Shown here in pieces: positions 191 to 5,862 of a stretch of DNA of 64,000 nucleotides. The stretch's first letter is position 1. The number at the start of each line of letters is the position of its first letter. Made by a program: the position numbers and the translations under genes. The notes below the pieces were generated by a model. That model searched no databases. It saw only the letters and a program-made list of their open reading frames with translations, and was not told the origin of the DNA. The stretch lies in IMG/VR virus record IMGVR_UViG_3300045988_006728. One strand, 5' to 3'. Source of the DNA: a virus. Taxonomy: Duplodnaviria; Heunggongvirae; Uroviricota; Caudoviricetes.

Positions 191-389
191 TTAAAAAAGT
201 TGTTGACAAAGTACTTGACAAGGTGTAGGCTTCTAAATACTTAGAAGATAACTTAAAAGGTTCCTCTAAAAAGGCTATTTAAACAGATATCTTTCTGGAT
301 ATCTATCTTTTATCTTAAAAGCCTTTTAAGAGGTCTTATAAGAGGCATACCAATGAAAAACAGAACAAACAAAGGCCAGTTTAAAAAAG
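191..389. repeat. Tandem direct repeat, copy 2 plus 9-nt start of a third copy
   Basis: Exact repetition of 1-190; sequence diverges after ttaaaaaag at 381-389. Confidence 0.9.
203..243 (+). promoter_or_regulatory. Sigma70-like promoter with duplicated -35 (TTGACA-N6-TTGACA); identical copy at 13-53
   Basis: TTGACA at 203-208 and 215-220 inside the conserved 12-mer CTTGACAAGGTG; the -10 region is weak (TAGGCT/TACTTA). Confidence 0.4.
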
Positions 390-724
390 GCCAATCTGGA
401 AACCCATCTGGAAGACCAAAAGGCTCTCGTAACAAAAGCTCACTTGTAAAAGCTCAACTGACCATTGATAATTCTGCTGAGTTTGCTGCAAAACTGTTTG
501 AGGCGATTGTTACAAGAGATGCTGCTAAGCTTGCAGAGTTCGGGTTAAACACAGACGACGTAACCATCAAGAGCATGATTGAGGTCGGTAAAACTATCAT
601 GACTCACTCAGCAGGTGAGATGAAAGCGATTGCAGCAGACACTAAGAAGACACCTGATAATGGTGGTCAGTCTCAGACAGATAACAAACCAACGTTCTCT
701 GCTGTAGCGATTCTCAAAAAATAA
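353..724 (+). CDS. Hypothetical basic protein with N-terminal Gly/Pro/Arg-rich motif (GNPSGRPKGSRN)
   Basis: 123-aa ORF; its start codon and first 12 codons lie inside the tandem repeat. Confidence 0.5.
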   Translation: MKNRTNKGQFKKGQSGNPSGRPKGSRNKSSLVKAQLTIDNSAEFAAKLFEAIVTRDAAKLAEFGLNTDDVTIKSMIEVGKTIMTHSAGEMKAIAADTKKTPDNGGQSQTDNKPTFSAVAILKK

Positions 725-736
725 TTTTAAAAGGTG

Positions 737-771
737 TTGACAGACTCTACAAAGTTGCTCTAAAGTCTGTC
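737..771 (+). promoter_or_regulatory. Promoter overlapped by an 8-bp inverted repeat (GACAGACT-N17-AGTCTGTC)
   Basis: TTGACA at 737-742; perfect inverted repeat 739-746/764-771 spans the spacer and -10 region upstream of the ORF at 807. Confidence 0.45.
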
Positions 772-806: not shown

Positions 807-2222
807 ATGAGCGAATTATTCAAACATGCGCACCTTCATGCAGGTCGAACTGAAAATGGTGCTGTAAACCATACTTCATCAATGTCTGCTCTTGTAGACT
901 TTTACAAAGCTGCTGGTTCAAGCCGTAGCAACGTAGAAATCTTACCAGACCTGTTCTACAAAGCTTTGCGTGAGGATGTTGATGTTGCAGTTCGTATTTT
1001 GCTTCATATGCGAGATGTACGAGAAGGTATGGGTGAGCGTAAAGCCTTCAGAACTGTTTTACTTCAAGCGATTGAAGACAAAGTTTTAGAGCCTACGCAG
1101 GTTCTTCGCATTATGGATAAGATTGCAGAACTTGGTCGTTTTGATGACTTCAAAATCTTCGTAGGTACTCGTTTCGAGACAGATGCCTTCAAACATCTAG
1201 AAGCAGCATTACTAGACCCTGCAACAGCAGGTTTGGCGGCTAAGTGGTTACCACGAGTCAAACCACGTCATAAGCAGTTTGTAAAACGTTTCTGCAAGTT
1301 TGCCAACTTGAGTGAGAAAGAGTACCGCACACTGTTGTCTGCACTATCTGATACAGTTGAGCAAAAAATCTCTGCTAATGAGTTTGGTAAGATTGACTAC
1401 AGTAAGATTCCTTCACTTGCTGCTGCACGTTACCAAAAACTGTTTAACCGCAAAGATGGAGAACGCTACAAAGCTTACATCGAGTCCTTATCAAAGGGTG
1501 AGGCTAAGATTAATGCTGGTGCTGTTTACCCATACGATGTAATTAAATCTGTTAAGCATGGTAATGCAGATGTTGCTAATGAGCAGTGGAAAGCACTACC
1601 AAACTGGATGGCAGAGGGTGAAAACATCTTGTGTATGTCTGATGTTTCAAGCTCAATGTCTTGGGTGAATTTTGGTTCAATTACTGCTCTTGATATTGGT
1701 GTTTCACTTGCATTGTATGTAGCAGAACGTAATACAGGTTGCTTTAAGAATGAGTTGATGGTTTATTCAACAAACCCTCACTTCATCGAACTGAGTGGTG
1801 ATTTACGAAACCGTAATCGTCAGGTGATGCGACACGTTGAATATGGCTCAACTAACTTACAAGCAGCTTTTGACCGCATTCTTGAGATAGGTAAGAGAAA
1901 CAACTTGACTCAGAAAGATATGCCAAGTAAGCTTATCATCTTCTCCGATATGGAGTTCAATCAGGTTGATGGGGCTAACGGTCGTACAAACTTTGAAGCA
2001 ATTCAGAGTAAGTACAAAAAAGCTGGATACGAAATGCCTCAACTGGTATTCTGGTACTTAGCAAACCGTAATGGTACTTGCGAAGTGTCTGTTAAGGATA
2101 ACGGTGTAGCAATGGTATCTGGTTTTTCTCCAGCTACTTTAAAAGCTCTGCTTGGTGGTGAGAAGTTTGACCCAATCAGCGTAATGCTCAAAGCAGTAAT
2201 GATTGACCGTTATATCTGGTAA
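807..2222 (+). CDS. vWA-domain protein with MIDAS motif (D-V-S-S-S); possible TROVE/Ro60-like RNA-binding protein
   Basis: 471-aa ORF; DxSxS at ILCMSDVSSSMS about residue 276 with hydrophobic beta-strand context; helical N-terminal domain beginning TENGAV...LVDFYKAAGS, loosely like the Ro60 N-terminus as recalled. Confidence 0.45.
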   Translation: MSELFKHAHLHAGRTENGAVNHTSSMSALVDFYKAAGSSRSNVEILPDLFYKALREDVDVAVRILLHMRDVREGMGERKAFRTVLLQAIEDKVLEPTQVLRIMDKIAELGRFDDFKIFVGTRFETDAFKHLEAALLDPATAGLAAKWLPRVKPRHKQFVKRFCKFANLSEKEYRTLLSALSDTVEQKISANEFGKIDYSKIPSLAAARYQKLFNRKDGERYKAYIESLSKGEAKINAGAVYPYDVIKSVKHGNADVANEQWKALPNWMAEGENILCMSDVSSSMSWVNFGSITALDIGVSLALYVAERNTGCFKNELMVYSTNPHFIELSGDLRNRNRQVMRHVEYGSTNLQAAFDRILEIGKRNNLTQKDMPSKLIIFSDMEFNQVDGANGRTNFEAIQSKYKKAGYEMPQLVFWYLANRNGTCEVSVKDNGVAMVSGFSPATLKALLGGEKFDPISVMLKAVMIDRYIW

Positions 2223-2237
2223 AAAGTTTTAAAAAGG

Positions 2238-2275
2238 GTATTGACAATGTGTTTGATACCCTTTAATATGTTCTA
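2238..2275 (+). promoter_or_regulatory. Sigma70-like promoter (TTGACA-17-TAATAT)
   Basis: Good -35/-10 match with 17-bp spacer upstream of the tRNA array. Confidence 0.5.
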
Positions 2276-2330
2276 CATAGAAACGAAACGAGAGCTTTTC
2301 TAAGATACTGAAAAATATTTTAAAAAAGTT

Positions 2331-2368
2331 CTTGACAATCACTAAAAAATAATGTTAAAGTGGTTACA
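2331..2368 (+). promoter_or_regulatory. Sigma70-like promoter (TTGACA-17-TTAAAG)
   Basis: Second promoter in tandem directly upstream of the first tRNA. Confidence 0.4.
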
Positions 2369-2387
2369 TAGAGTTTGAAAAGTTTAT

Positions 2388-2464
2388 CTCTGTTTAGCTC
2401 AGCTTGGTAGAGCGTTCCGTTTGGGGCGGTAAGGCCGGAGGTTCAAGTCCTCCAACAGAGACCA
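2388..2464 (+). tRNA. tRNA-Pro (anticodon TGG)
   Basis: Acceptor ctctgtt/aacagag, D-arm gctc-agcttggta-gagc, T-arm ggagg-ttcaagt-cctcc, anticodon loop tttgggg, encoded CCA. Confidence 0.7.
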
Positions 2465-2471
2465 AATTAAT

Positions 2472-2549
2472 GTTCCAGTAGACAAAATGGTAAAGTCACC
2501 ACTCTTTCAAAGTGGATATCTGAGGGTTCAAATCCCTTCTGGAACGCCA
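2472..2549 (+). tRNA. tRNA-Glu (anticodon TTC)
   Basis: Acceptor gttccag/ctggaac, anticodon stem ccact/agtgg with loop ctttcaa, T-loop ttcaaat, CCA. Confidence 0.7.
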
Positions 2550-2556
2550 GTTTTGA

Positions 2557-2628
2557 CAGAAGACCAATTACAGCAAACTTAATCTACTCATCTGACACGA
2601 AATCGGACAAAGAAGATATTTGGTCTGG
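2557..2628 (+). ncRNA. Structured inter-tRNA element, unit 1 (A box CAGAAGACC ... B box GGTCTGG); candidate Y RNA-like stem-loop
   Basis: AGACC of the A box pairs with GGTCT of the B box; conserved TaCAGCAA follows the A box; same framing repeated at three other sites. Confidence 0.35.
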
Positions 2629-2639
2629 TCATTGAGAAT

Positions 2640-2716
2640 TGCGGGTATAGAGAAAGGGCGTCTCACATGTCTCATTAGCATGGTATCGGCAGGTTCGACT
2701 CCTGCACCCGCCTCCA
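2640..2716 (+). tRNA. tRNA-Met (anticodon CAT)
   Basis: Anticodon stem catgt/gcatg with loop ctcatta, T-arm gcagg-ttcgact-cctgc, CCA; first acceptor pair mismatched and position 37 is T. Confidence 0.55.
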
Positions 2717-2722
2717 ATTTTG

Positions 2723-2782
2723 CAGAAGACCGTATTCAGCAACAAAATACTTTTTGCGGATAAAAGAAAAAACACGGTCTGG
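2723..2782 (+). ncRNA. Structured inter-tRNA element, unit 2 (A/B box framed)
   Basis: CAGAAGACCgtaTtCAGCAA at 2723 and GGTCTGG at 2776; the inner helix shows compensatory changes relative to unit 1. Confidence 0.35.
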
Positions 2783-2793
2783 CAATGTATTAA

Positions 2794-2870
2794 GGTTAGG
2801 AAGCACATAAGGTATGTGCGGTCGCCTGTTAAGCGAATGGCACAGGGTTCGAATCCCTGACTAACCGCCA
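2794..2870 (+). tRNA. tRNA-Asn (anticodon GTT)
   Basis: Anticodon loop ctgttaa, T-arm caggg-ttcgaat-ccctg, acceptor 3' strand actaacc, CCA. Confidence 0.65.
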
Positions 2871-2879
2871 AATTTAAAT

Positions 2880-2967
2880 GTGTCGTTATCCCGTAGATGG
2901 TAGCGGTGGGGACTGTAAATCCCTTGTCATTGAGACTCGGTAGGTTCGACTCCTACACGGCACACCA
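2880..2967 (+). tRNA. tRNA-Tyr (anticodon GTA), class II with long variable arm
   Basis: 88 nt; anticodon stem gggga/tccct with loop ctgtaaa; T-arm gtagg-ttcgact-cctac; CCA. Confidence 0.65.
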
Positions 2968-2972
2968 ATAAA

Positions 2973-3050
2973 GGTTATGTAGTTTAATTTGGTTAAAATA
3001 CTCCCCTGTCACGGGAGATGATGAGGGTTCAAATCCCTTCGTAACCGCCA
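2973..3050 (+). tRNA. tRNA-Asp (anticodon GTC)
   Basis: Anticodon stem ctccc/gggag with loop ctgtcac; T-loop ttcaaat; CCA. Confidence 0.65.
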
Positions 3051-3111
3051 ATTTTGAGAGGGCTATTTAGCCCCTCCCTTAAAGGGTTCTTACGAGTATC
3101 CTTTAAAGGAG

Positions 3112-3184
3112 CAGAAGACCAAATACAGCAAGAACGTATGAAATTTCAAGCCAATTTAATTTTGAAAATTTAAACTTGGTCTGG
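3112..3184 (+). ncRNA. Structured inter-tRNA element, unit 3a (A/B box framed)
   Basis: CAGAAGACCaaaTaCAGCAA at 3112 and GGTCTGG at 3178. Confidence 0.35.
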
Positions 3185-3197
3185 CTCAACAAATTTA

Positions 3198-3329
3198 CAG
3201 AAGACCGTTTACAGCAAAACTTAAACAATCTATTTCTCCGGTAAAGAAAAGGCGAAGGTTCGATTCCTTCACTCGGCAGATGTCGAGTTGGTGTAATGGT
3301 AGCACTTAAGATGATAAACAACGGTCTGG
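3198..3329 (+). ncRNA. Structured element, unit 3b, with internal tRNA-mimic domain; candidate YrlA-like Y RNA
   Basis: A box at 3198 and B box at 3323 frame a T-arm (gaagg-ttcgatt-ccttc, 3254-3270), a 7-bp acceptor-like helix closed by a 4-nt loop (actcggc-agat-gtcgagt, 3271-3288) and a D-arm (gtg-taatggtag-cac); there is no anticodon arm. Confidence 0.4.
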
Positions 3330-3330
3330 T

Positions 3331-3474
3331 AATTATCTTTGTAGATAAGTTATTAAGCTTACCTGTGAGTATGCGACCACAAAGGGTGAAAGGGTAAATT
3401 CTAGATTTAAACCCAAAAAGGCACATCGCTACAGACCTTAAGCAAGTCTGGGTAGCTTATCTACAAAGATAATT
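3331..3474 (+). repeat. Perfect 19-bp inverted repeat (AATTATCTTTGTAGATAAG) flanking a 106-bp structured segment
   Basis: 3331-3349 is the exact reverse complement of 3456-3474; the interior holds further hairpins (cagac-N8-gtctg); ends 4 nt before tRNA-Lys. Confidence 0.6.
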
Positions 3475-3478
3475 TAAT

Positions 3479-3554
3479 GGAAGTGTAGCAGAATGGTGAT
3501 GCGGCAGACTTTTAATCTGACAGGCGATGGGTTCGAATCCCTCCACTTCTACCA
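3479..3554 (+). tRNA. tRNA-Lys (anticodon TTT)
   Basis: Anticodon loop cttttaa, D-loop aatggtga, T-loop ttcgaat, acceptor ggaagtg/cacttct, CCA; paralog of the tRNA at 5201. Confidence 0.7.
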
Positions 3555-3558
3555 ATAT

Positions 3559-3635
3559 GGTTCAGTCGCAGATAAGGTAATGCAGGGGTCTCATAAGCCC
3601 TATGAATGTGGGTTCGATTCCCATCTGAACCTCCA
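3559..3635 (+). tRNA. tRNA with anticodon CAT (Met, fMet or Ile2)
   Basis: Perfect acceptor ggttcag/ctgaacc, anticodon loop ctcataa, T-loop ttcgatt, CCA. Confidence 0.7.
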
Positions 3636-3636
3636 A

Positions 3637-3712
3637 GCTGGTATAGTTAAGAAGGTTATAACACTCCCCTGATAAGGGAACATCGGTGGTTCGATTCCAC
3701 CTACCAGTACCA
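3637..3712 (+). tRNA. tRNA-Ile (anticodon GAT)
   Basis: Anticodon loop ctgataa, T-arm ggtgg-ttcgatt-ccacc, CCA. Confidence 0.7.
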
Positions 3713-3723
3713 ATTTCAATAAA

Positions 3724-3759
3724 GTTGTTGACATTGAGATGTGACTACTTTATAGTAAC
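3724..3759 (+). promoter_or_regulatory. Sigma70-like promoter (TTGACA-17-TATAGT)
   Basis: Strong -35/-10 match; followed by about 230 nt of structured non-coding sequence before tRNA-Arg. Confidence 0.5.
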
Positions 3760-3987
3760 CTTAGTTTTCGTTGCGTAGCGTCTATTTTGCAAATTTAAAA
3801 TAAATGCAAACGACAATGTTTTTCTGGCAGTAGCTTGATAGGCTAAACACCAGTGAGGTCTTCCAATCCCTCATCAAAGAATTTGGCGTACTCGCCCACG
3901 GTATGATTAATAATGTGGGCAACACTCTAAAGGGTATCCCTTATGGGTCTTGGCTTAAATGCAATAAGTACCCTTTAAAATGTTAAT

Positions 3988-4064
3988 GCACCCTTAGTTC
4001 AATTGGATAGAGCAACGGTCTTCTAAATCGTTAGTTACAGGTTCGAATCCTGTAGGGTGTGCCA
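3988..4064 (+). tRNA. tRNA-Arg (anticodon TCT)
   Basis: Anticodon stem acggt/atcgt with loop cttctaa; T-loop ttcgaat; acceptor gcaccct/agggtgt; CCA. Confidence 0.7.
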
Positions 4065-4207
4065 ATTTAGTTAGCAGATTGCTTAGACGACCTTATCGGG
4101 TCTCCGTGTAAGGAGGTGGTCTGTATCTCATGTTTTCCAGAACATGTAAATAATCTGAGAAGGTGCTTTACAGTGTTGAGATAATACGGTAAGCTTCGAA
4201 TTATAGT

Positions 4208-4290
4208 GTGGGACGATGTTAAGACTCTAAGGCATGAGCAACGGCCTCCAAAACCGTTTCAAAGTGGTTCAACTCCTCCGTCCCATGCCA
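4208..4290 (+). tRNA. Atypical tRNA-like gene, anticodon loop ctCCAaa (Trp?), 8-bp acceptor helix
   Basis: 8-bp helix gtgggacg/cgtcccat, discriminator G, CCA and T-loop ttcaact are present, but the D-region is about 8 nt too long for a canonical fold. Confidence 0.35.
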
Positions 4291-4303
4291 AAGTCTTATT
4301 AGG

Positions 4304-4393
4304 GGTAGGTAGCGGCTAATGGTAGCCAAACTGTCTTGAAAACAGTTGCCACTGTAGAGATACGGTGAGGGTTCGACTCCTTTACTTACCGCC
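4304..4393 (+). tRNA. tRNA-Ser (anticodon TGA), class II
   Basis: 90 nt; anticodon stem actgt/acagt with loop cttgaaa; long variable arm; T-loop ttcgact; discriminator G; only CC of CCA encoded. Confidence 0.65.
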
Positions 4394-4662
4394 TAATAAG
4401 ATTTAAAGCCAAGCTTCATTCGGATGTTGCTTTGGTATCCCTCGTGTATTGTCGTACACGCACAGTAAAGCACCTAGTAGGTGTCACGGAGAAGAGATAA
4501 TATCAAGCTCTCCAAAGGTTCTAGTCACCGGATTAAACAAGACTATGCAAAGACCTTTTTAGGTCTTTTTAGAGGGCTTCTAAGGTTATTACAGCTTGTT
4601 GTGGAACCTTGTTGCTTAGGTTCTTAGAAGTTCTCTAAAAAGATTTAATGGGAGATTGACAT

Positions 4663-5115
4663 ATGGCACGTAGCAGTTTGACTAAAGATATTCTTGAACC
4701 TTTAGTAAAGGGTTCAGTATCATTCAGAGAAGTGCTTATAAAGCTTGGGAGAAAACCATCAGGTGGTTCTCAGTCACATCTAAAGCGTGTTATAGAGAAG
4801 TTTGAAATAGACACTTCTCATTTCCTCGGACAAAAGGCTGGTAAGATTAAAACTGTACCAAAAAGAAAGCCTGAAGAAATCTTAATTCTACGTGAATCTG
4901 GTGAAAGAGCAAGGTCTTCACAACTAAGAAGAGCTTTAATAGCATCTGGTATCGAATACAAATGCTCTAAATGCGGTCAGTTACCGGAGTGGTTGGGCAA
5001 CCCTCTAACTCTTGATGTTGACCACATTAATGAGAACTGGTTAGATGATAGAAAAGAGAATCTTCGGTTCTTATGTCCAAATTGCCACAGTCAATTCTCA
5101 AGGCATTTGATTTAA
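4663..5115 (+). CDS. HNH homing endonuclease inside the tRNA array
   Basis: 150-aa ORF with C-terminal HNH signature DVDHINENW...RFLCPNCHSQ; stop codon lies 2 nt before the next tRNA. Confidence 0.7.
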   Translation: MARSSLTKDILEPLVKGSVSFREVLIKLGRKPSGGSQSHLKRVIEKFEIDTSHFLGQKAGKIKTVPKRKPEEILILRESGERARSSQLRRALIASGIEYKCSKCGQLPEWLGNPLTLDVDHINENWLDDRKENLRFLCPNCHSQFSRHLI

Positions 5116-5116
5116 T

Positions 5117-5193
5117 GCACCTATAGCCCAACTGGTAGAGGCAGCAGACTTAGAATCTGCTCAGTGTGAGTTCGAATCTCTCTAGGTGTACCA
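5117..5193 (+). tRNA. tRNA with anticodon TAG (decodes Leu CUA) but class I, short-variable-arm fold
   Basis: Acceptor gcaccta/taggtgt, anticodon stem gcaga/tctgc with loop cttagaa, T-loop ttcgaat, CCA; variable arm only 5 nt. Confidence 0.55.
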
Positions 5194-5200
5194 AATTAAT

Positions 5201-5276
5201 GCAGGTGTAGCAAAATGGTTATGCGGCTGACTCTTAATCAGTAAGACGATGGGTTCAATTCCCTCCACCTGTACCA
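5201..5276 (+). tRNA. tRNA-Lys (anticodon CTT)
   Basis: Paralog of tRNA-Lys(TTT) at 3479 with a compensatory change in the anticodon stem; loop ctcttaa; CCA. Confidence 0.65.
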
Positions 5277-5282
5277 GACATT

Positions 5283-5358
5283 GGGGATGTAGTTTACATG
5301 GTTAAAACATAAGTTTTGCAAACTTAAGTACAGGGTTCAATTCCCTGCTTCTCCACCA
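5283..5358 (+). tRNA. tRNA-Ala (anticodon TGC)
   Basis: G3-U70 wobble pair in the acceptor stem (ggggatg/cttctcc), anticodon loop tttgcaa, T-arm caggg-ttcaatt-ccctg, CCA. Confidence 0.7.
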
Positions 5359-5364
5359 ATTAGT

Positions 5365-5439
5365 GCATCCATAGTTTAAACGGGAAAATTACAGTCTTCC
5401 AAACTGAGGTTGAGGGTTCGAGTCCCTTCGGATTCTCCA
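5365..5439 (+). tRNA. tRNA-Gly (anticodon TCC), acceptor stem imperfect
   Basis: Anticodon loop cttccaa, T-arm gaggg-ttcgagt-ccctt, CCA; two mismatches in the acceptor helix. Confidence 0.5.
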
Positions 5440-5477
5440 AGTTATTTTACTCTCTCTCAATTAAAATAATAATAATG

Positions 5478-5528
5478 CCCTGCTATAAGTATTCTTCCTT
5501 TCGCTACCGAAGAGTATTTTTAGACAGG
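5478..5528 (+). terminator. Hairpin plus T-run at the end of the tRNA array
   Basis: gccctg...cagggc followed by tttttt. Confidence 0.35.
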
Positions 5529-5661: not shown

Positions 5662-5862
5662 ATGAGTGAGACCGTTTACAAAGAACTTTATGAAGCTAAT
5701 AAAAAGCTAGAATTTATGCAGAACACTATCATGGCAATTGCAGATAGATTATCTGTAGCAACAGGTATTGATATTAAAGAAGCATCTATGGATGCACTTC
5801 TTGATGCTGTTGATGCAAAGTTCGAAGTTAAGAAAGAAGAGACTGCTACAGACTCTGAATAA
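5662..5862 (+). CDS. Hypothetical small protein upstream of the large terminase (small terminase role unproven)
   Basis: 66-aa ORF tightly coupled to the terminase gene. Confidence 0.35.
   Translation: MSETVYKELYEANKKLEFMQNTIMAIADRLSVATGIDIKEASMDALLDAVDAKFEVKKEETATDSE

What the first reader, a model, noticed from the sequence alone, without database searches (positions are those of the whole stretch)
807..3329. Candidate Ro60-like protein plus Y RNA-like elements embedded in the tRNA array
The ORF at 807-2222 pairs a helical N-terminal domain with a C-terminal vWA domain carrying a clear MIDAS motif (DxSxS). That is the architecture of Ro60/Rsr (TROVE plus vWA), and the N-terminus loosely echoes the Ro60 N-terminal pattern. 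Just downstream, four stem-loop units (2557-2628, 2723-2782, 3112-3184, 3198-3329) share a 5' box CAGAAGACC-N3-TaCAGCAA and a 3' box GGTCTGG that pair (AGACC/GGTCT), with compensatory changes in the adjoining helix. Unit 3b contains a T-arm, a 7-bp acceptor-like helix closed by a 4-nt loop, and a D-arm but no anticodon arm. That matches the tRNA-mimic design described for bacterial YrlA Y RNAs, where the terminal helix takes the place of the anticodon stem. Together this suggests a phage ribonucleoprotein module tied to the tRNA array, possibly for RNA quality control or countering host RNA-targeting defences.
Basis: partly seen in the sequence, partly recalled or inferred. Interest (0 to 1): 0.85.

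Follow-up and report, generated by a model that had tools for sequence, protein, structure and literature searches.

The report
Phage Ro60-like protein with partner RNAs
A Felix O1-type phage encodes a ring-shaped Ro60-like protein and, just downstream among its tRNA genes, four small structured RNAs of a previously undescribed family that travels with this protein's gene in phages, bacteria and archaea, so the two probably form an RNA-protein particle related to the Ro60/Y RNA complex.

Summary

The four RNA units are real (4 box matches against 0.04 expected). Each closes its ends into a 7-8 bp helix followed by UWCAGCAA. The same module, with a freely covarying helix, an almost invariant CAGCAA and a G after the 3' strand, lies beside DUF2828 genes on the gene's strand. 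A covariance model gave 80 of 81 hits on that strand in IMG/VR phage loci. In an independent set of 80 bacterial and archaeal genome loci, all 96 hits were on that strand.

Some copies, including unit 3b, carry a T arm, closed acceptor hairpin and D arm, the YrlA design. The units fail Rfam's YrlA and Y_RNA thresholds and lack the canonical GNCGAA motif. I read this as a new, widespread variant of the Ro60/Y RNA ribonucleoprotein. Binding, expression and function of the RNAs are inferred, not shown.

The parts
807..2222 (+). Gene for a 471-aa Ro60-like protein (Pfam DUF2828 + DUF7788): a HEAT-repeat ring up to about residue 265, then a vWA domain with MIDAS residues D279, S281, S283, T349 and D381. 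Ortholog of Bas63 gp130.
737..766 (+). Sigma-70-like promoter match upstream of the Ro60-like gene.
   Evidence: 10 of 12 consensus matches. This is a consensus match only.
2241..2361 (+). Two sigma-70-like promoter matches (2241-2269 and 2332-2361) at the head of the tRNA array. They probably drive the transcript that contains units 1 to 3b.
   Evidence: and the direct repeat D17. No terminator-like site was found on the + strand between here and 3712. Co-transcription is inferred.
2555..2630 (+). RNA unit 1, between tRNA-Glu and tRNA-Met. Helix 2561-2567 with 2620-2626, box TACAGCAA at 2569-2576, G2627, outer pairs GAC/GUC, and a small internal hairpin.
   Evidence: Covariance model R1 scores 43.8 bits, E 4e-6.
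2721..2784 (+). RNA unit 2, between tRNA-Met and tRNA-Asn. Helix 2727-2733 with 2774-2780, box TTCAGCAA at 2735-2742, G2781.
   Evidence: R1 scores 46.0 bits, E 1.3e-6.
3110..3186 (+). RNA unit 3a. Helix 3116-3122 with 3176-3182, box TACAGCAA at 3124-3131, G3183, and an internal AU-rich hairpin.
   Evidence: R1 scores 36.5 bits, E 1.8e-4.
3196..3331 (+). RNA unit 3b, the long form. Helix 3202-3209 with 3320-3327, box TACAGCAA at 3210-3217, G3328, and a connecting stem 3220-3224 with 3306-3310 that encloses a tRNA-like domain.
   Evidence: R1 misses it because of the roughly 100-nt insert. It was found by the register-anchored scan.
3233..3305 (+). tRNA-like domain of unit 3b. It comprises a V-arm or anticodon-arm-like hairpin at 3233-3249, a T arm at 3254-3270, a closed acceptor-like hairpin at 3271-3288 (7 bp, loop AGAT) and a D-arm-like hairpin at 3291-3305 (loop AATGGTA).
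   Evidence: RNAfold. The tRNA model gives a partial hit of 22 bits. The same order of arms is seen in homologous units of other loci and in the Rfam YrlA consensus.

Best explanation
The 471-aa protein is a divergent Ro60 homologue: a HEAT-repeat ring closed by a vWA/MIDAS domain, in the DUF2828 family. The four units are its cognate small RNAs, functionally analogous to Y RNAs.

Proposed mechanism. The units are transcribed with the tRNAs from the promoters at about 2241 and 2332. The nucleases that process tRNA precursors release them. Each RNA has two parts. The first is a constant docking module: the 5' and 3' ends pair into a 7-8 bp helix that begins A-R-G and ends Y-C-U followed by G. 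Next to the helix is an internal loop made of the near-invariant strand UWCAGCAA opposite an A-rich strand. The second part is a variable payload: a small hairpin in units 1, 2 and 3a, and a tRNA mimic in unit 3b. The Ro60-like ring binds the docking module. The payload then gates the ring or tethers it to tRNA-recognising host factors, such as RNase P, the CCA-adding enzyme, modification enzymes or PNPase. The ring's cavity is expected to bind single-stranded 3' ends.

Proposed biological role. The particle protects or surveys nucleic-acid ends during infection. The one experimentally known output is relief of the Ppl defence.

What is shown. The fold of the protein is shown. The existence, conservation and covariation of the RNA module are shown, as is its strict linkage to the gene and its strand. 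The tRNA-like payload is shown. The anti-Ppl phenotype of the ortholog comes from the literature.

What is inferred. Transcription and processing of the units, physical binding to the protein, and every functional step after binding are inferred.

For: RNA in the window. There are 4 box matches against 0.04 expected.

RNA in IMG/VR phage loci (DUF2828 39-48% identical to the window protein). A register-anchored scan found 110 helix+box+G units on the gene's strand and 5 on the other strand. Covariance model R1 gave 80 of 81 hits with E<=1 on the gene's strand.

Independent test on 80 bacterial and archaeal genome loci not used to build R1. All 96 hits with E<=1 were on the gene's strand, and most lay within 500 nt upstream of the gene. 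Helix pairs 1-7 were paired in essentially every one of these 62 hits, with 3-5 pair types per position; position 8 pairs in only about half, which gives 93.2% over all eight. CAGCAA was 57-62 of 62 invariant, and the trailing G was 61 of 62. By the scan, 52 of 75 phage loci and 67 of 80 genome loci have at least one unit.

Linkage to the gene rather than to tRNAs. Locus L087 has no tRNAs, yet a unit lies 12 nt after the DUF2828 stop codon (E 5e-9). The T4 tRNA cluster has no hit (best 15 bits).

tRNA-like payload. The T stem covaries. The order T arm, closed hairpin, D arm is seen in window unit 3b and in L011, L023, L036, L070 (three units) and L077. Thirty T-arm-bearing units were found, none on the opposite strand. 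Rfam YrlA aligns the tRNA-like core of the L070 units (38.9 bits, E 4e-6).

Function. Bas63 gp130 is 97% identical and syntenic. Its deletion sensitises the phage to Ppl and complementation rescues it (preprint 10.1101/2024.10.10.617714). RNA-repair-type neighbours occur in some loci: T4 Rnl1-type ligase and Metallophos phosphoesterase. Canonical phage Ro60 binds adjacent Y-like RNAs and PNPase (PMC12135203).
Against: There is no transcript, processing or binding data for any unit. No RNA-seq study of a Felixounavirus was found.

gp130 expressed alone from a plasmid or from the T7 genome rescues T7 from Ppl. The RNAs are therefore not needed for the only known phenotype.

The units do not reach the Rfam thresholds for YrlA or Y_RNA and lack the GNCGAAN0-1G motif that marks the Ro60 site of YrlA.

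The N-terminal domain has no detectable sequence similarity to Pfam TROVE.

Single-sequence folding energies are only weakly better than shuffles (z -1.1 to -2.1).

The seed alignment for R1 was picked with a pairing filter, so its pair counts are circular. Only the independent set and the strand asymmetry count as evidence.

By the anchored scan, 23 of 75 phage loci and 13 of 80 genome loci showed no unit; by the model, 23 of the 80 genome loci had no hit at E<=1.
Confidence: 0.68

Rival explanations
1. The helix+UWCAGCAA module is a cis-acting element of the DUF2828 transcript rather than a free small RNA. It could be an autoregulatory operator, a leader or trailer that controls translation or stability, or a processing signal. 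The protein may still bind it, but only to regulate its own expression.
For: In the genome loci, most copies lie within 600 nt upstream of the gene start on the same strand. In phage loci, many lie immediately after the stop codon, for example 12 nt after the stop in L087. No transcript ends are known.
Against: Copies come in sets of 2 to 7 per locus. In this window they lie 330-1100 nt downstream of the gene, behind two promoter-like sites and separated from the gene and from one another by tRNAs. In Vibrio phage phi-pp2 the unit is 7 kb from the gene, inside the tRNA array. Payloads such as a complete tRNA-like domain have no obvious role in a leader.
Confidence: 0.15
2. The units are processing or spacer elements of phage tRNA arrays, or decayed and rearranged tRNA genes, with no specific relation to the protein.
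For: In the window they sit between tRNA genes. Unit 3b contains T- and D-arm sequences. Some GenBank records label parts of this region tRNA-OTHER or tRNA-pseudo (rows H29 and H30).
Against: The module follows the DUF2828 gene into loci without any tRNA. It is absent from the T4 tRNA cluster and from the other 60 kb of the window. The box is nearly invariant and the helix covaries across loci whose proteins are only 33-48% identical to the window protein, which is not what decay would leave. Units 1, 2 and 3a have no tRNA-like sequence at all.
Confidence: 0.05
3. The module acts at the DNA level, for example as an inverted-repeat recombination or attachment site of a mobile DUF2828 gene cassette, or as a homing-endonuclease target.
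For: The gene is patchily distributed across very different phages and cells, suggesting mobility. Homing endonuclease genes sit in these arrays (window 4663-5115).
Against: The asymmetry is strictly strand-specific (0 of 96 and 1 of 81 hits on the other strand). A conserved single-stranded box sits on one arm only. G-U pairs are tolerated in the helix. The helix sequence varies freely, which would not suit a sequence-specific DNA site.
Confidence: 0.04

Closest known systems
Bacterial Ro60 (Rsr) with YrlA-type Y RNAs (Chen et al. 2014, RNA 20:1715, PMC4201824; Rfam RF02553)
   Same: Both have a ring-shaped HEAT+vWA protein. The small RNAs are encoded within a few kb on the same strand. The RNA ends pair into a stem next to a conserved motif. 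At least some RNAs carry a tRNA-like domain with the permuted order T arm, closed acceptor stem, D arm, where the stem towards the protein site replaces the anticodon stem. Shorter partner RNAs without the tRNA-like part (YrlB-like) also exist.
   Different: The protein family differs at sequence level: DUF2828/DUF7788 with no TROVE Pfam hit. The docking module differs: a 7-8 bp covarying helix plus UWCAGCAA and a trailing G, instead of the bulged helix with GNCGAAN0-1G. Rfam YrlA aligns only the tRNA-like core, at 25-39 bits against a threshold of 69, and does not align window unit 3b at all. The genes here are embedded in a phage tRNA array and not in an rtcBA repair operon.
Bas63 (Escherichia phage JohannRWettstein) gp130, counter of the Ppl defence (PhageMaP preprint, bioRxiv 10.1101/2024.10.10.617714)
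   Same: It is the ortholog of the window ORF: 97% identical, same length, same position upstream of tRNA-Pro/Glu/Met/Asn/Tyr/Asp. The authors already noted its structural similarity to Ro60.
   Different: [quoted passage not shown] The actual candidate RNAs are the unannotated units between the tRNA genes. In the Bas63 record, two of them (3a and 3b) are overlapped by the minus-strand hypothetical CDSs bas63_0137 and bas63_0138.
Thermus phage phiLo Ro60 with Yrl1/Yrl2 (NAR 2025, PMC12135203; PDB 9KOP, 9L5Y)
   Different: phiLo Ro60 is a sequence-recognisable TROVE protein. Its RNAs carry the canonical CGAA motif and lie upstream of the gene, not in a tRNA array.
Deinococcus radiodurans Yrn1
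   Same: It is a Y RNA in which the tRNA-like elements are arranged in the unpermuted order. One unit found here (L029 5729-5838) likewise encloses an ordinary-order tRNA-like sequence between the two strands of the docking helix.
   Different: The sequence motifs and the protein family differ.
Phage T4 stable RNAs species 1 and 2 (rnaC, rnaD) in the tRNA cluster
   Same: They are small stable non-tRNA RNAs, co-transcribed and processed with phage tRNAs, of unknown function.
   Different: They have no helix+UWCAGCAA module (best R1 hit in the T4 cluster is 15 bits). To my knowledge T4 has no DUF2828 gene.

Membership tests
Ro60 / TROVE protein family | Ring of HEAT-like helical repeats closed by a C-terminal vWA domain | tested here: met
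Ro60 / TROVE protein family | MIDAS motif (DxSxS plus distal T and D) in the vWA domain | tested here: met
   D279, S281, S283, T349 and D381 are invariant in 54 homologues. They align with DVSAS of Ro60.
Ro60 / TROVE protein family | Sequence-profile match to Pfam TROVE (PF05731) | tested here: not met
   There is no TROVE hit at E<=1 for the protein, or at E<=10 for any of 54 homologues. Only weak vWA_Ro60 hits were found in 9 of 54. HHalign to human Ro60 covers only the last helix plus the vWA domain (E 2.6e-4).
Ro60 / TROVE protein family | Binds Y RNA on the ring surface and single-stranded RNA ends in the central hole | not testable with these tools
   This needs biochemistry or a complex structure.
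Pfam DUF2828 / DUF7788 | Scores above the curated Pfam cut-offs | tested here: met
   DUF7788 scores 148.8 bits against a cut-off of 27.1. DUF2828 scores 104.1 bits against a cut-off of 29.
YrlA / Y RNA (Rfam RF02553, RF00019) | Reaches the family's gathering score with the Rfam covariance model | tested here: not met
   There is no Y_RNA or YrlA hit in the window at the gathering threshold, at E<=10 over 2200-5500, or over unit 3b alone. Related long units in L070 reach 25-39 bits against a threshold of 69.
YrlA / Y RNA (Rfam RF02553, RF00019) | Conserved GNCGAAN0-1G (CGAA) motif in the Ro60-binding region | tested here: not met
   The conserved strand here is UWCAGCAA. The motif definition is taken from Chen 2014 and PMC12135203.
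YrlA / Y RNA (Rfam RF02553, RF00019) | 5' and 3' ends pair into a stem adjoining an internal loop | tested here: met
   RNAfold of all four units. Helix covariation in independent loci.
YrlA / Y RNA (Rfam RF02553, RF00019) | Encoded within about 4 kb of the Ro60 gene on the same strand | tested here: met
   In the window the units lie 330-1100 nt downstream on the + strand. In related loci, 80 of 81 and 96 of 96 model hits are on the gene's strand and mostly adjacent to it.
YrlA / Y RNA (Rfam RF02553, RF00019) | tRNA-like domain with T arm, acceptor-like stem and D arm | tested here: met
   The feature is met in unit 3b and in 30 related units. It is not present in units 1, 2 and 3a, which resemble the shorter YrlB type.
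YrlA / Y RNA (Rfam RF02553, RF00019) | Stable RNA physically associated with the Ro60 protein | not testable with these tools
   No expression or pull-down data were found.
tRNA genes | Complete cloverleaf recognised by ARAGORN or the Rfam tRNA model at threshold | tested here: not met
   None of the four units is called a tRNA. Unit 3b gives a partial hit of 22 bits against a threshold of 29.

The most novel reading that the evidence does not exclude
DUF2828 proteins and the helix+UWCAGCAA RNAs form a second, so far unrecognised and very widespread branch of Ro60/Y RNA ribonucleoproteins. It is present in many phage lineages and in bacterial and archaeal genomes. It has its own RNA docking code and interchangeable payloads: small hairpins, permuted or unpermuted tRNA mimics, and larger domains of about 160 nt. 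In phages the particle would be an anti-defence device. The ring would cap single-stranded 3' ends, the signal sensed by the Ppl exonuclease, and the RNAs would gate or target this activity.
Probability: 0.45. Interest if true: 0.85.

Novelty: new variant of a known kind. Interest (0 to 1): 0.76.

Why it matters
Ro60 and Y RNAs are a long-studied but functionally puzzling RNP, known as a human autoantigen, in RNA quality control, and as the bacterial RYPER machine. Three consequences follow if the finding holds.

First, it would give the DUF2828 family a concrete RNA partner.

Second, it would make the open hypothesis of the Bas63 study directly testable, because it names the actual RNAs rather than 'some tRNA genes'.

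Third, it offers a natural experiment in how a Ro60-type ring recognises RNA. The fold and the tRNA-mimic payload are the same as in YrlA systems, but the docking motif is different.

It also ties a Ro60-like RNP to a defined phenotype, escape from the Ppl defence, in a genetically tractable phage. Finally, it flags spurious protein-coding annotations that lie over these RNAs in GenBank records.

Tried and rejected
Rfam at gathering thresholds, on the window and on ten related loci, gave only tRNA, tmRNA and one group I intron. Weak hits to Dicty_Class_I_RNA, plant miRNA families and plastid UTR families were dismissed as chance, because they are far below threshold and of the wrong biology.

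Sequence searches of the protein against PDB chains gave nothing significant. The single sequence gave uridine kinase at E 1.3. The profile gave the Ro60 vWA domain at E 0.3. Only fold comparison was decisive.

The exact Felixounavirus 5' box is not found outside the genus. The family became visible only after the box was relaxed to WWCAGCA and a complementary 3' strand was required.

The pair counts on the seed alignment A2 were set aside as circular, because those sequences had been selected for pairing.

MAFFT plus RNAalifold on the long units recovered only the terminal helix and the T arm. The acceptor-like and D arms vary too much in length to align, so they were examined sequence by sequence.

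Literature searches for DUF2828, Ro60-like and Y RNA-like phage RNAs, and Felixounavirus transcriptomes found no description of these RNAs. The Annual Review on bacterial Ro60 was not held in the library.

Gene neighbourhoods of five homologues showed no constant partner gene. RNA ligase and Metallophos recur in only some loci.

I did not pursue a conserved outer helix. Three base pairs outside an AGA/G loop are seen in the four window units, but the flanks of other loci do not obviously pair.


Full report
**Source and layout.** The window is a Felix O1-type myovirus (Felixounavirus). Region 807-3400 is 99.6% identical to Escherichia phage vB_EcoM_ASO1A. It is conserved at 80% identity or more, over most of its length, in 248 of 299 matching phage records. 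ORF 807-2222 (+, 471 aa) is followed on the same strand by an array of 15 tRNA genes (2388-5439). An HNH endonuclease gene (4663-5115) and several unannotated gaps interrupt the array.

**The protein.**
- Pfam assigns DUF2828 (104 bits) and DUF7788 (149 bits), with only a sub-threshold VWA_2 hit. PHROGs places it in phrog_850, 'RNA-binding protein'.
- Thousands of homologues exist, nearly all from phage-like contigs. In an alignment of 54 of them, D279, S281, S283, T349 and D381, the MIDAS residues, are invariant.
- The AlphaFold model built on that alignment is confident (pLDDT 88.7, pTM 0.89). It is helical to about residue 265 and has an alpha/beta domain after that.
- Foldseek against the PDB returns ten Ro60/TROVE structures as the ten best hits (E 1.5e-8 to 1e-6, TM up to 0.65 over about 540 columns). 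Isolated vWA domains follow.
- At sequence level the relationship is faint. There is no TROVE hit for any of 54 homologues, and weak vWA_Ro60 hits in nine. A PDB profile search touches only the Ro60 vWA domain (E 0.3). HHalign to human Ro60 covers residues 236-381 (E 2.6e-4). I wrote the human Ro60 sequence from memory and verified it against chain 9nen_A.
- I conclude that the protein is a full-length structural homologue of Ro60 that belongs to a separate sequence family.

**The four units in the window.**
- The pattern CAGAAGACCNNNTWCAGCAA occurs four times (2557, 2723, 3112, 3198), all on the + strand, against 0.04 expected.
- All four fold so that AGACCNN(N) pairs with (N)NNGGTCT at the other end, with three further outer pairs beyond an AGA/G internal loop.
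- Units 1 and 3a carry CCAA/TTGG where units 2 and 3b carry CCGT/ACGG.
- Unit 3b (3196-3331) encloses, inside a 5-bp connecting stem (3220-3224 with 3306-3310), four elements: a hairpin at 3233-3249, a canonical T arm at 3254-3270, a 7-bp hairpin closed by a 4-nt loop at 3271-3288, and a D-arm-like hairpin with GG in its loop at 3291-3305.
- Folding energies alone are unremarkable (z -1.1 to -2.1).
- Rfam has nothing for these units at threshold or at E<=10. The exceptions are a partial tRNA hit on 3b and a chance-level hit on unit 2.

**Comparative evidence from phage loci.**
- I fetched 80 IMG/VR loci encoding DUF2828 homologues. Many place the gene at the head of a tRNA array or near a tmRNA gene.
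- The exact Felixounavirus box is confined to that genus. In L007, whose protein is 48% identical, the gaps between tRNAs hold units with the same plan but different helices: AGAGCAC/GTGCTCT, AGGACAC/GTGTCCT and AGAGCAGT/ACTGCTCT. Each is followed by TTCAGCAA, and one has a T arm.
- I then scanned for WWCAGCA preceded at a fixed register by 7 bases whose complement lies 12-200 nt downstream. This found 122 units on the gene's strand and 27 on the other. With the additional requirement of a G after the 3' strand the counts were 110 and 5, although the box alone is equally common on both strands (454 and 487).
- The consensus is 5'-A-[A R G N Y R S]-N-W-W-C-A-G-C-A-A ... A-rich ... [S Y R N C Y U]-G-3'.
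- A covariance model (R1) built from 38 short units gave 81 hits with E<=1 in 0.93 Mb searched on both strands. Eighty were on the gene's strand. In the 64-kb window only units 1, 2 and 3a were hit. Unit 3b is missed because of its 100-nt insert.

**Independent test on genome loci.**
- Because the seed was chosen with a pairing filter, its pair statistics are circular. I therefore fetched a second, unrelated set: 80 loci from bacterial and archaeal genome assemblies whose DUF2828 proteins are 33-43% identical to the query.
- R1 gave 96 hits with E<=1, all 96 on the gene's strand, most within 500 nt upstream of the start codon. Thirty-four loci have a hit at E<0.01 and 57 at E<=1.
- In the 62 best hits, helix positions 1-7 are paired in essentially every sequence, with three to five pair types each, for example AU 28, UA 13, GC 12, CG 5. 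Position 8 pairs in about half, so the figure over all eight positions is 93.2%. Sliding the partner strand by one to three columns drops pairing to about 40%.
- C-A-G-C-A-A is 57-62 of 62 conserved, and the G after the helix is 61 of 62.
- By the anchored scan, 52 of 75 non-Felix phage loci and 67 of 80 genome loci have at least one unit.
- The RNA follows the gene, not tRNAs. L087 has no tRNA, yet a unit lies 12 nt after the stop codon (E 5e-9). In Vibrio phage phi-pp2 the unit sits in the tRNA array 7 kb from the gene. The T4 tRNA cluster, used as a negative control, has no hit (best 15 bits).

**The tRNA-like payload.**
- Thirty units in 28 loci contain a canonical T arm, and none of the opposite-strand matches does.
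- In an alignment of eleven long units, the T loop GGTTCRANYCC and a GG in the D loop are invariant, and the T stem shows compensatory changes.
- Individual folds show the order T arm, closed 6-8 bp hairpin, D arm in window unit 3b and in L011, L023, L036, three units of L070, and L077.
- Rfam's YrlA model, searched permissively, matches the three long L070 units over its full length (38.9, 28.7 and 25.2 bits; E 4e-6 to 0.04; gathering score 69). The alignment shows the match is carried by the T arm, the acceptor-like hairpin and the D arm. The outer stems that hold the Rsr site in YrlA do not pair.
- So the payload follows the YrlA design, but the docking module is different. Canonical YrlA is defined by GNCGAAN0-1G (Chen et al. 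2014). The phiLo Y-like RNAs are defined by CGAA (PMC12135203). Here the motif is UWCAGCAA.
- Other payloads exist. One unit encloses an ordinary-order tRNA-like sequence (L029 5729-5838), recalling Deinococcus Yrn1. A group of units of about 160 nt upstream of the gene carries a large non-tRNA domain.

**Interpretation.** The most economical reading is that DUF2828 proteins and these RNAs form a ribonucleoprotein analogous to Ro60/Y RNA. The helix plus UWCAGCAA/A-rich loop would be the protein-binding module, and the rest an exchangeable effector or adaptor. In this phage the RNAs would be made from the tRNA precursor transcript. Promoter-like sites lie at 2241 and 2332, and no terminator-like site lies on the + strand before 3712. 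These steps are inferred, and I found no expression data. gp130 counters Ppl without the RNAs, so the RNAs are not required for that activity. As with Y RNAs, they may gate, localise or retarget the ring. Ro60 threads single-stranded 3' ends through its hole (established for Xenopus Ro60), and Ppl senses 3'-OH ends, so end-capping by the ring is an attractive mechanism, but it is speculative. Neighbouring T4 Rnl1-type RNA ligase and Metallophos phosphoesterase genes in some loci hint at an RNA-repair setting like that of rsr-rtcBA, but this context is not constant.

**Rivals.** A purely cis-regulatory role fits the position next to the gene. It does not fit the multiple copies, the promoters and tRNAs between the gene and the units here, or the tRNA-like payloads. 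Decayed tRNAs or generic array spacers are excluded by the linkage to DUF2828 in tRNA-free loci and by the conservation pattern. A DNA-level site is made unlikely by the complete strand asymmetry and the free variation of the helix sequence.

**Verdict.** The protein part is already in the literature. The RNA family, its docking motif, its breadth and its linkage to DUF2828 appear to be undescribed in Rfam 15 and in the searchable literature. I class the finding as a new variant of a known kind of system.

Noticed in passing
window 3103-3426 (- strand); L086 4249-4401 and 4413-4523 (bas63_0137, bas63_0138): A 107-aa minus-strand ORF overlaps units 3a and 3b. In the Bas63 GenBank record two minus-strand 'hypothetical protein' CDSs are annotated over the same RNAs. 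These are probably spurious gene calls.
   Followed up: partly
window 4210-4284 (+): A tRNA-shaped sequence with a GCCA end is not called by ARAGORN and scores only 21 bits, on the tRNA-Sec model. It may be a degenerate or unusual tRNA. Some sibling phage records annotate 'tRNA-OTHER' or 'tRNA-pseudo' in this array.
   Followed up: no
window 4663-5115 (+): An HNH homing-endonuclease-like ORF sits inside the tRNA array. L007 has a similar insert, and T4 has segB at the equivalent place. This is notable because Ppl is reported to be triggered by 3'-OH ends made by phage homing endonucleases.
   Followed up: partly
window 3713-3987 (+): A 275-nt gap in the array has the best promoter match of the region (3728-3756, 11 of 12). 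It also has sub-threshold matches to permuted tmRNA (29 bits) and tmRNA models. Its nature is unknown.
   Followed up: no
window 3051-3110 and 3332-3478 (+): These are further unannotated spacers flanking units 3a and 3b. The first contains two short hairpins (GAGGGGCTA.../...TAGCCCCTC-like, and AAAGG.../...CCTTT). No model hit was found.
   Followed up: no
L029 5729-5838: A docking helix plus TTCAGCAA encloses a sequence that ARAGORN and Rfam call tRNA-Thr (5753-5824). This is a unit whose payload is a tRNA in normal order, a different design from unit 3b.
   Followed up: partly
L034 5486-5641, L044 5479-5642, L052 1713-1878, L061 5714-5877, L062 5458-5614, L075 4111-4275: Units of about 160 nt lie just upstream of the DUF2828 gene. 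They carry a large conserved insert that is not tRNA-like, a third kind of payload with unknown structure.
   Followed up: no
L024 1317-1767, L027 11822-12176, L028 12119-12479, L039 12694-13067, L045 12356-12709, L077 1386-1798: Several DUF2828 loci encode a phage tmRNA within a few kb of the gene.
   Followed up: no
L087 6279-7391 and 9842-10555; L172 8243-8983: A T4 Rnl1-type RNA ligase and Metallophos phosphoesterases lie next to DUF2828 in some phage contigs, an RNA-repair-like neighbourhood.
   Followed up: partly
L018 11696-11922: A group I intron (Rfam 71.5 bits) is present in a DUF2828-bearing phage contig.
   Followed up: no
window 353-724 (+): A DUF5681 protein gene lies directly upstream of the Ro60-like gene and is conserved at this place in Bas63 and typing phage 1. 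No function is known.
   Followed up: no
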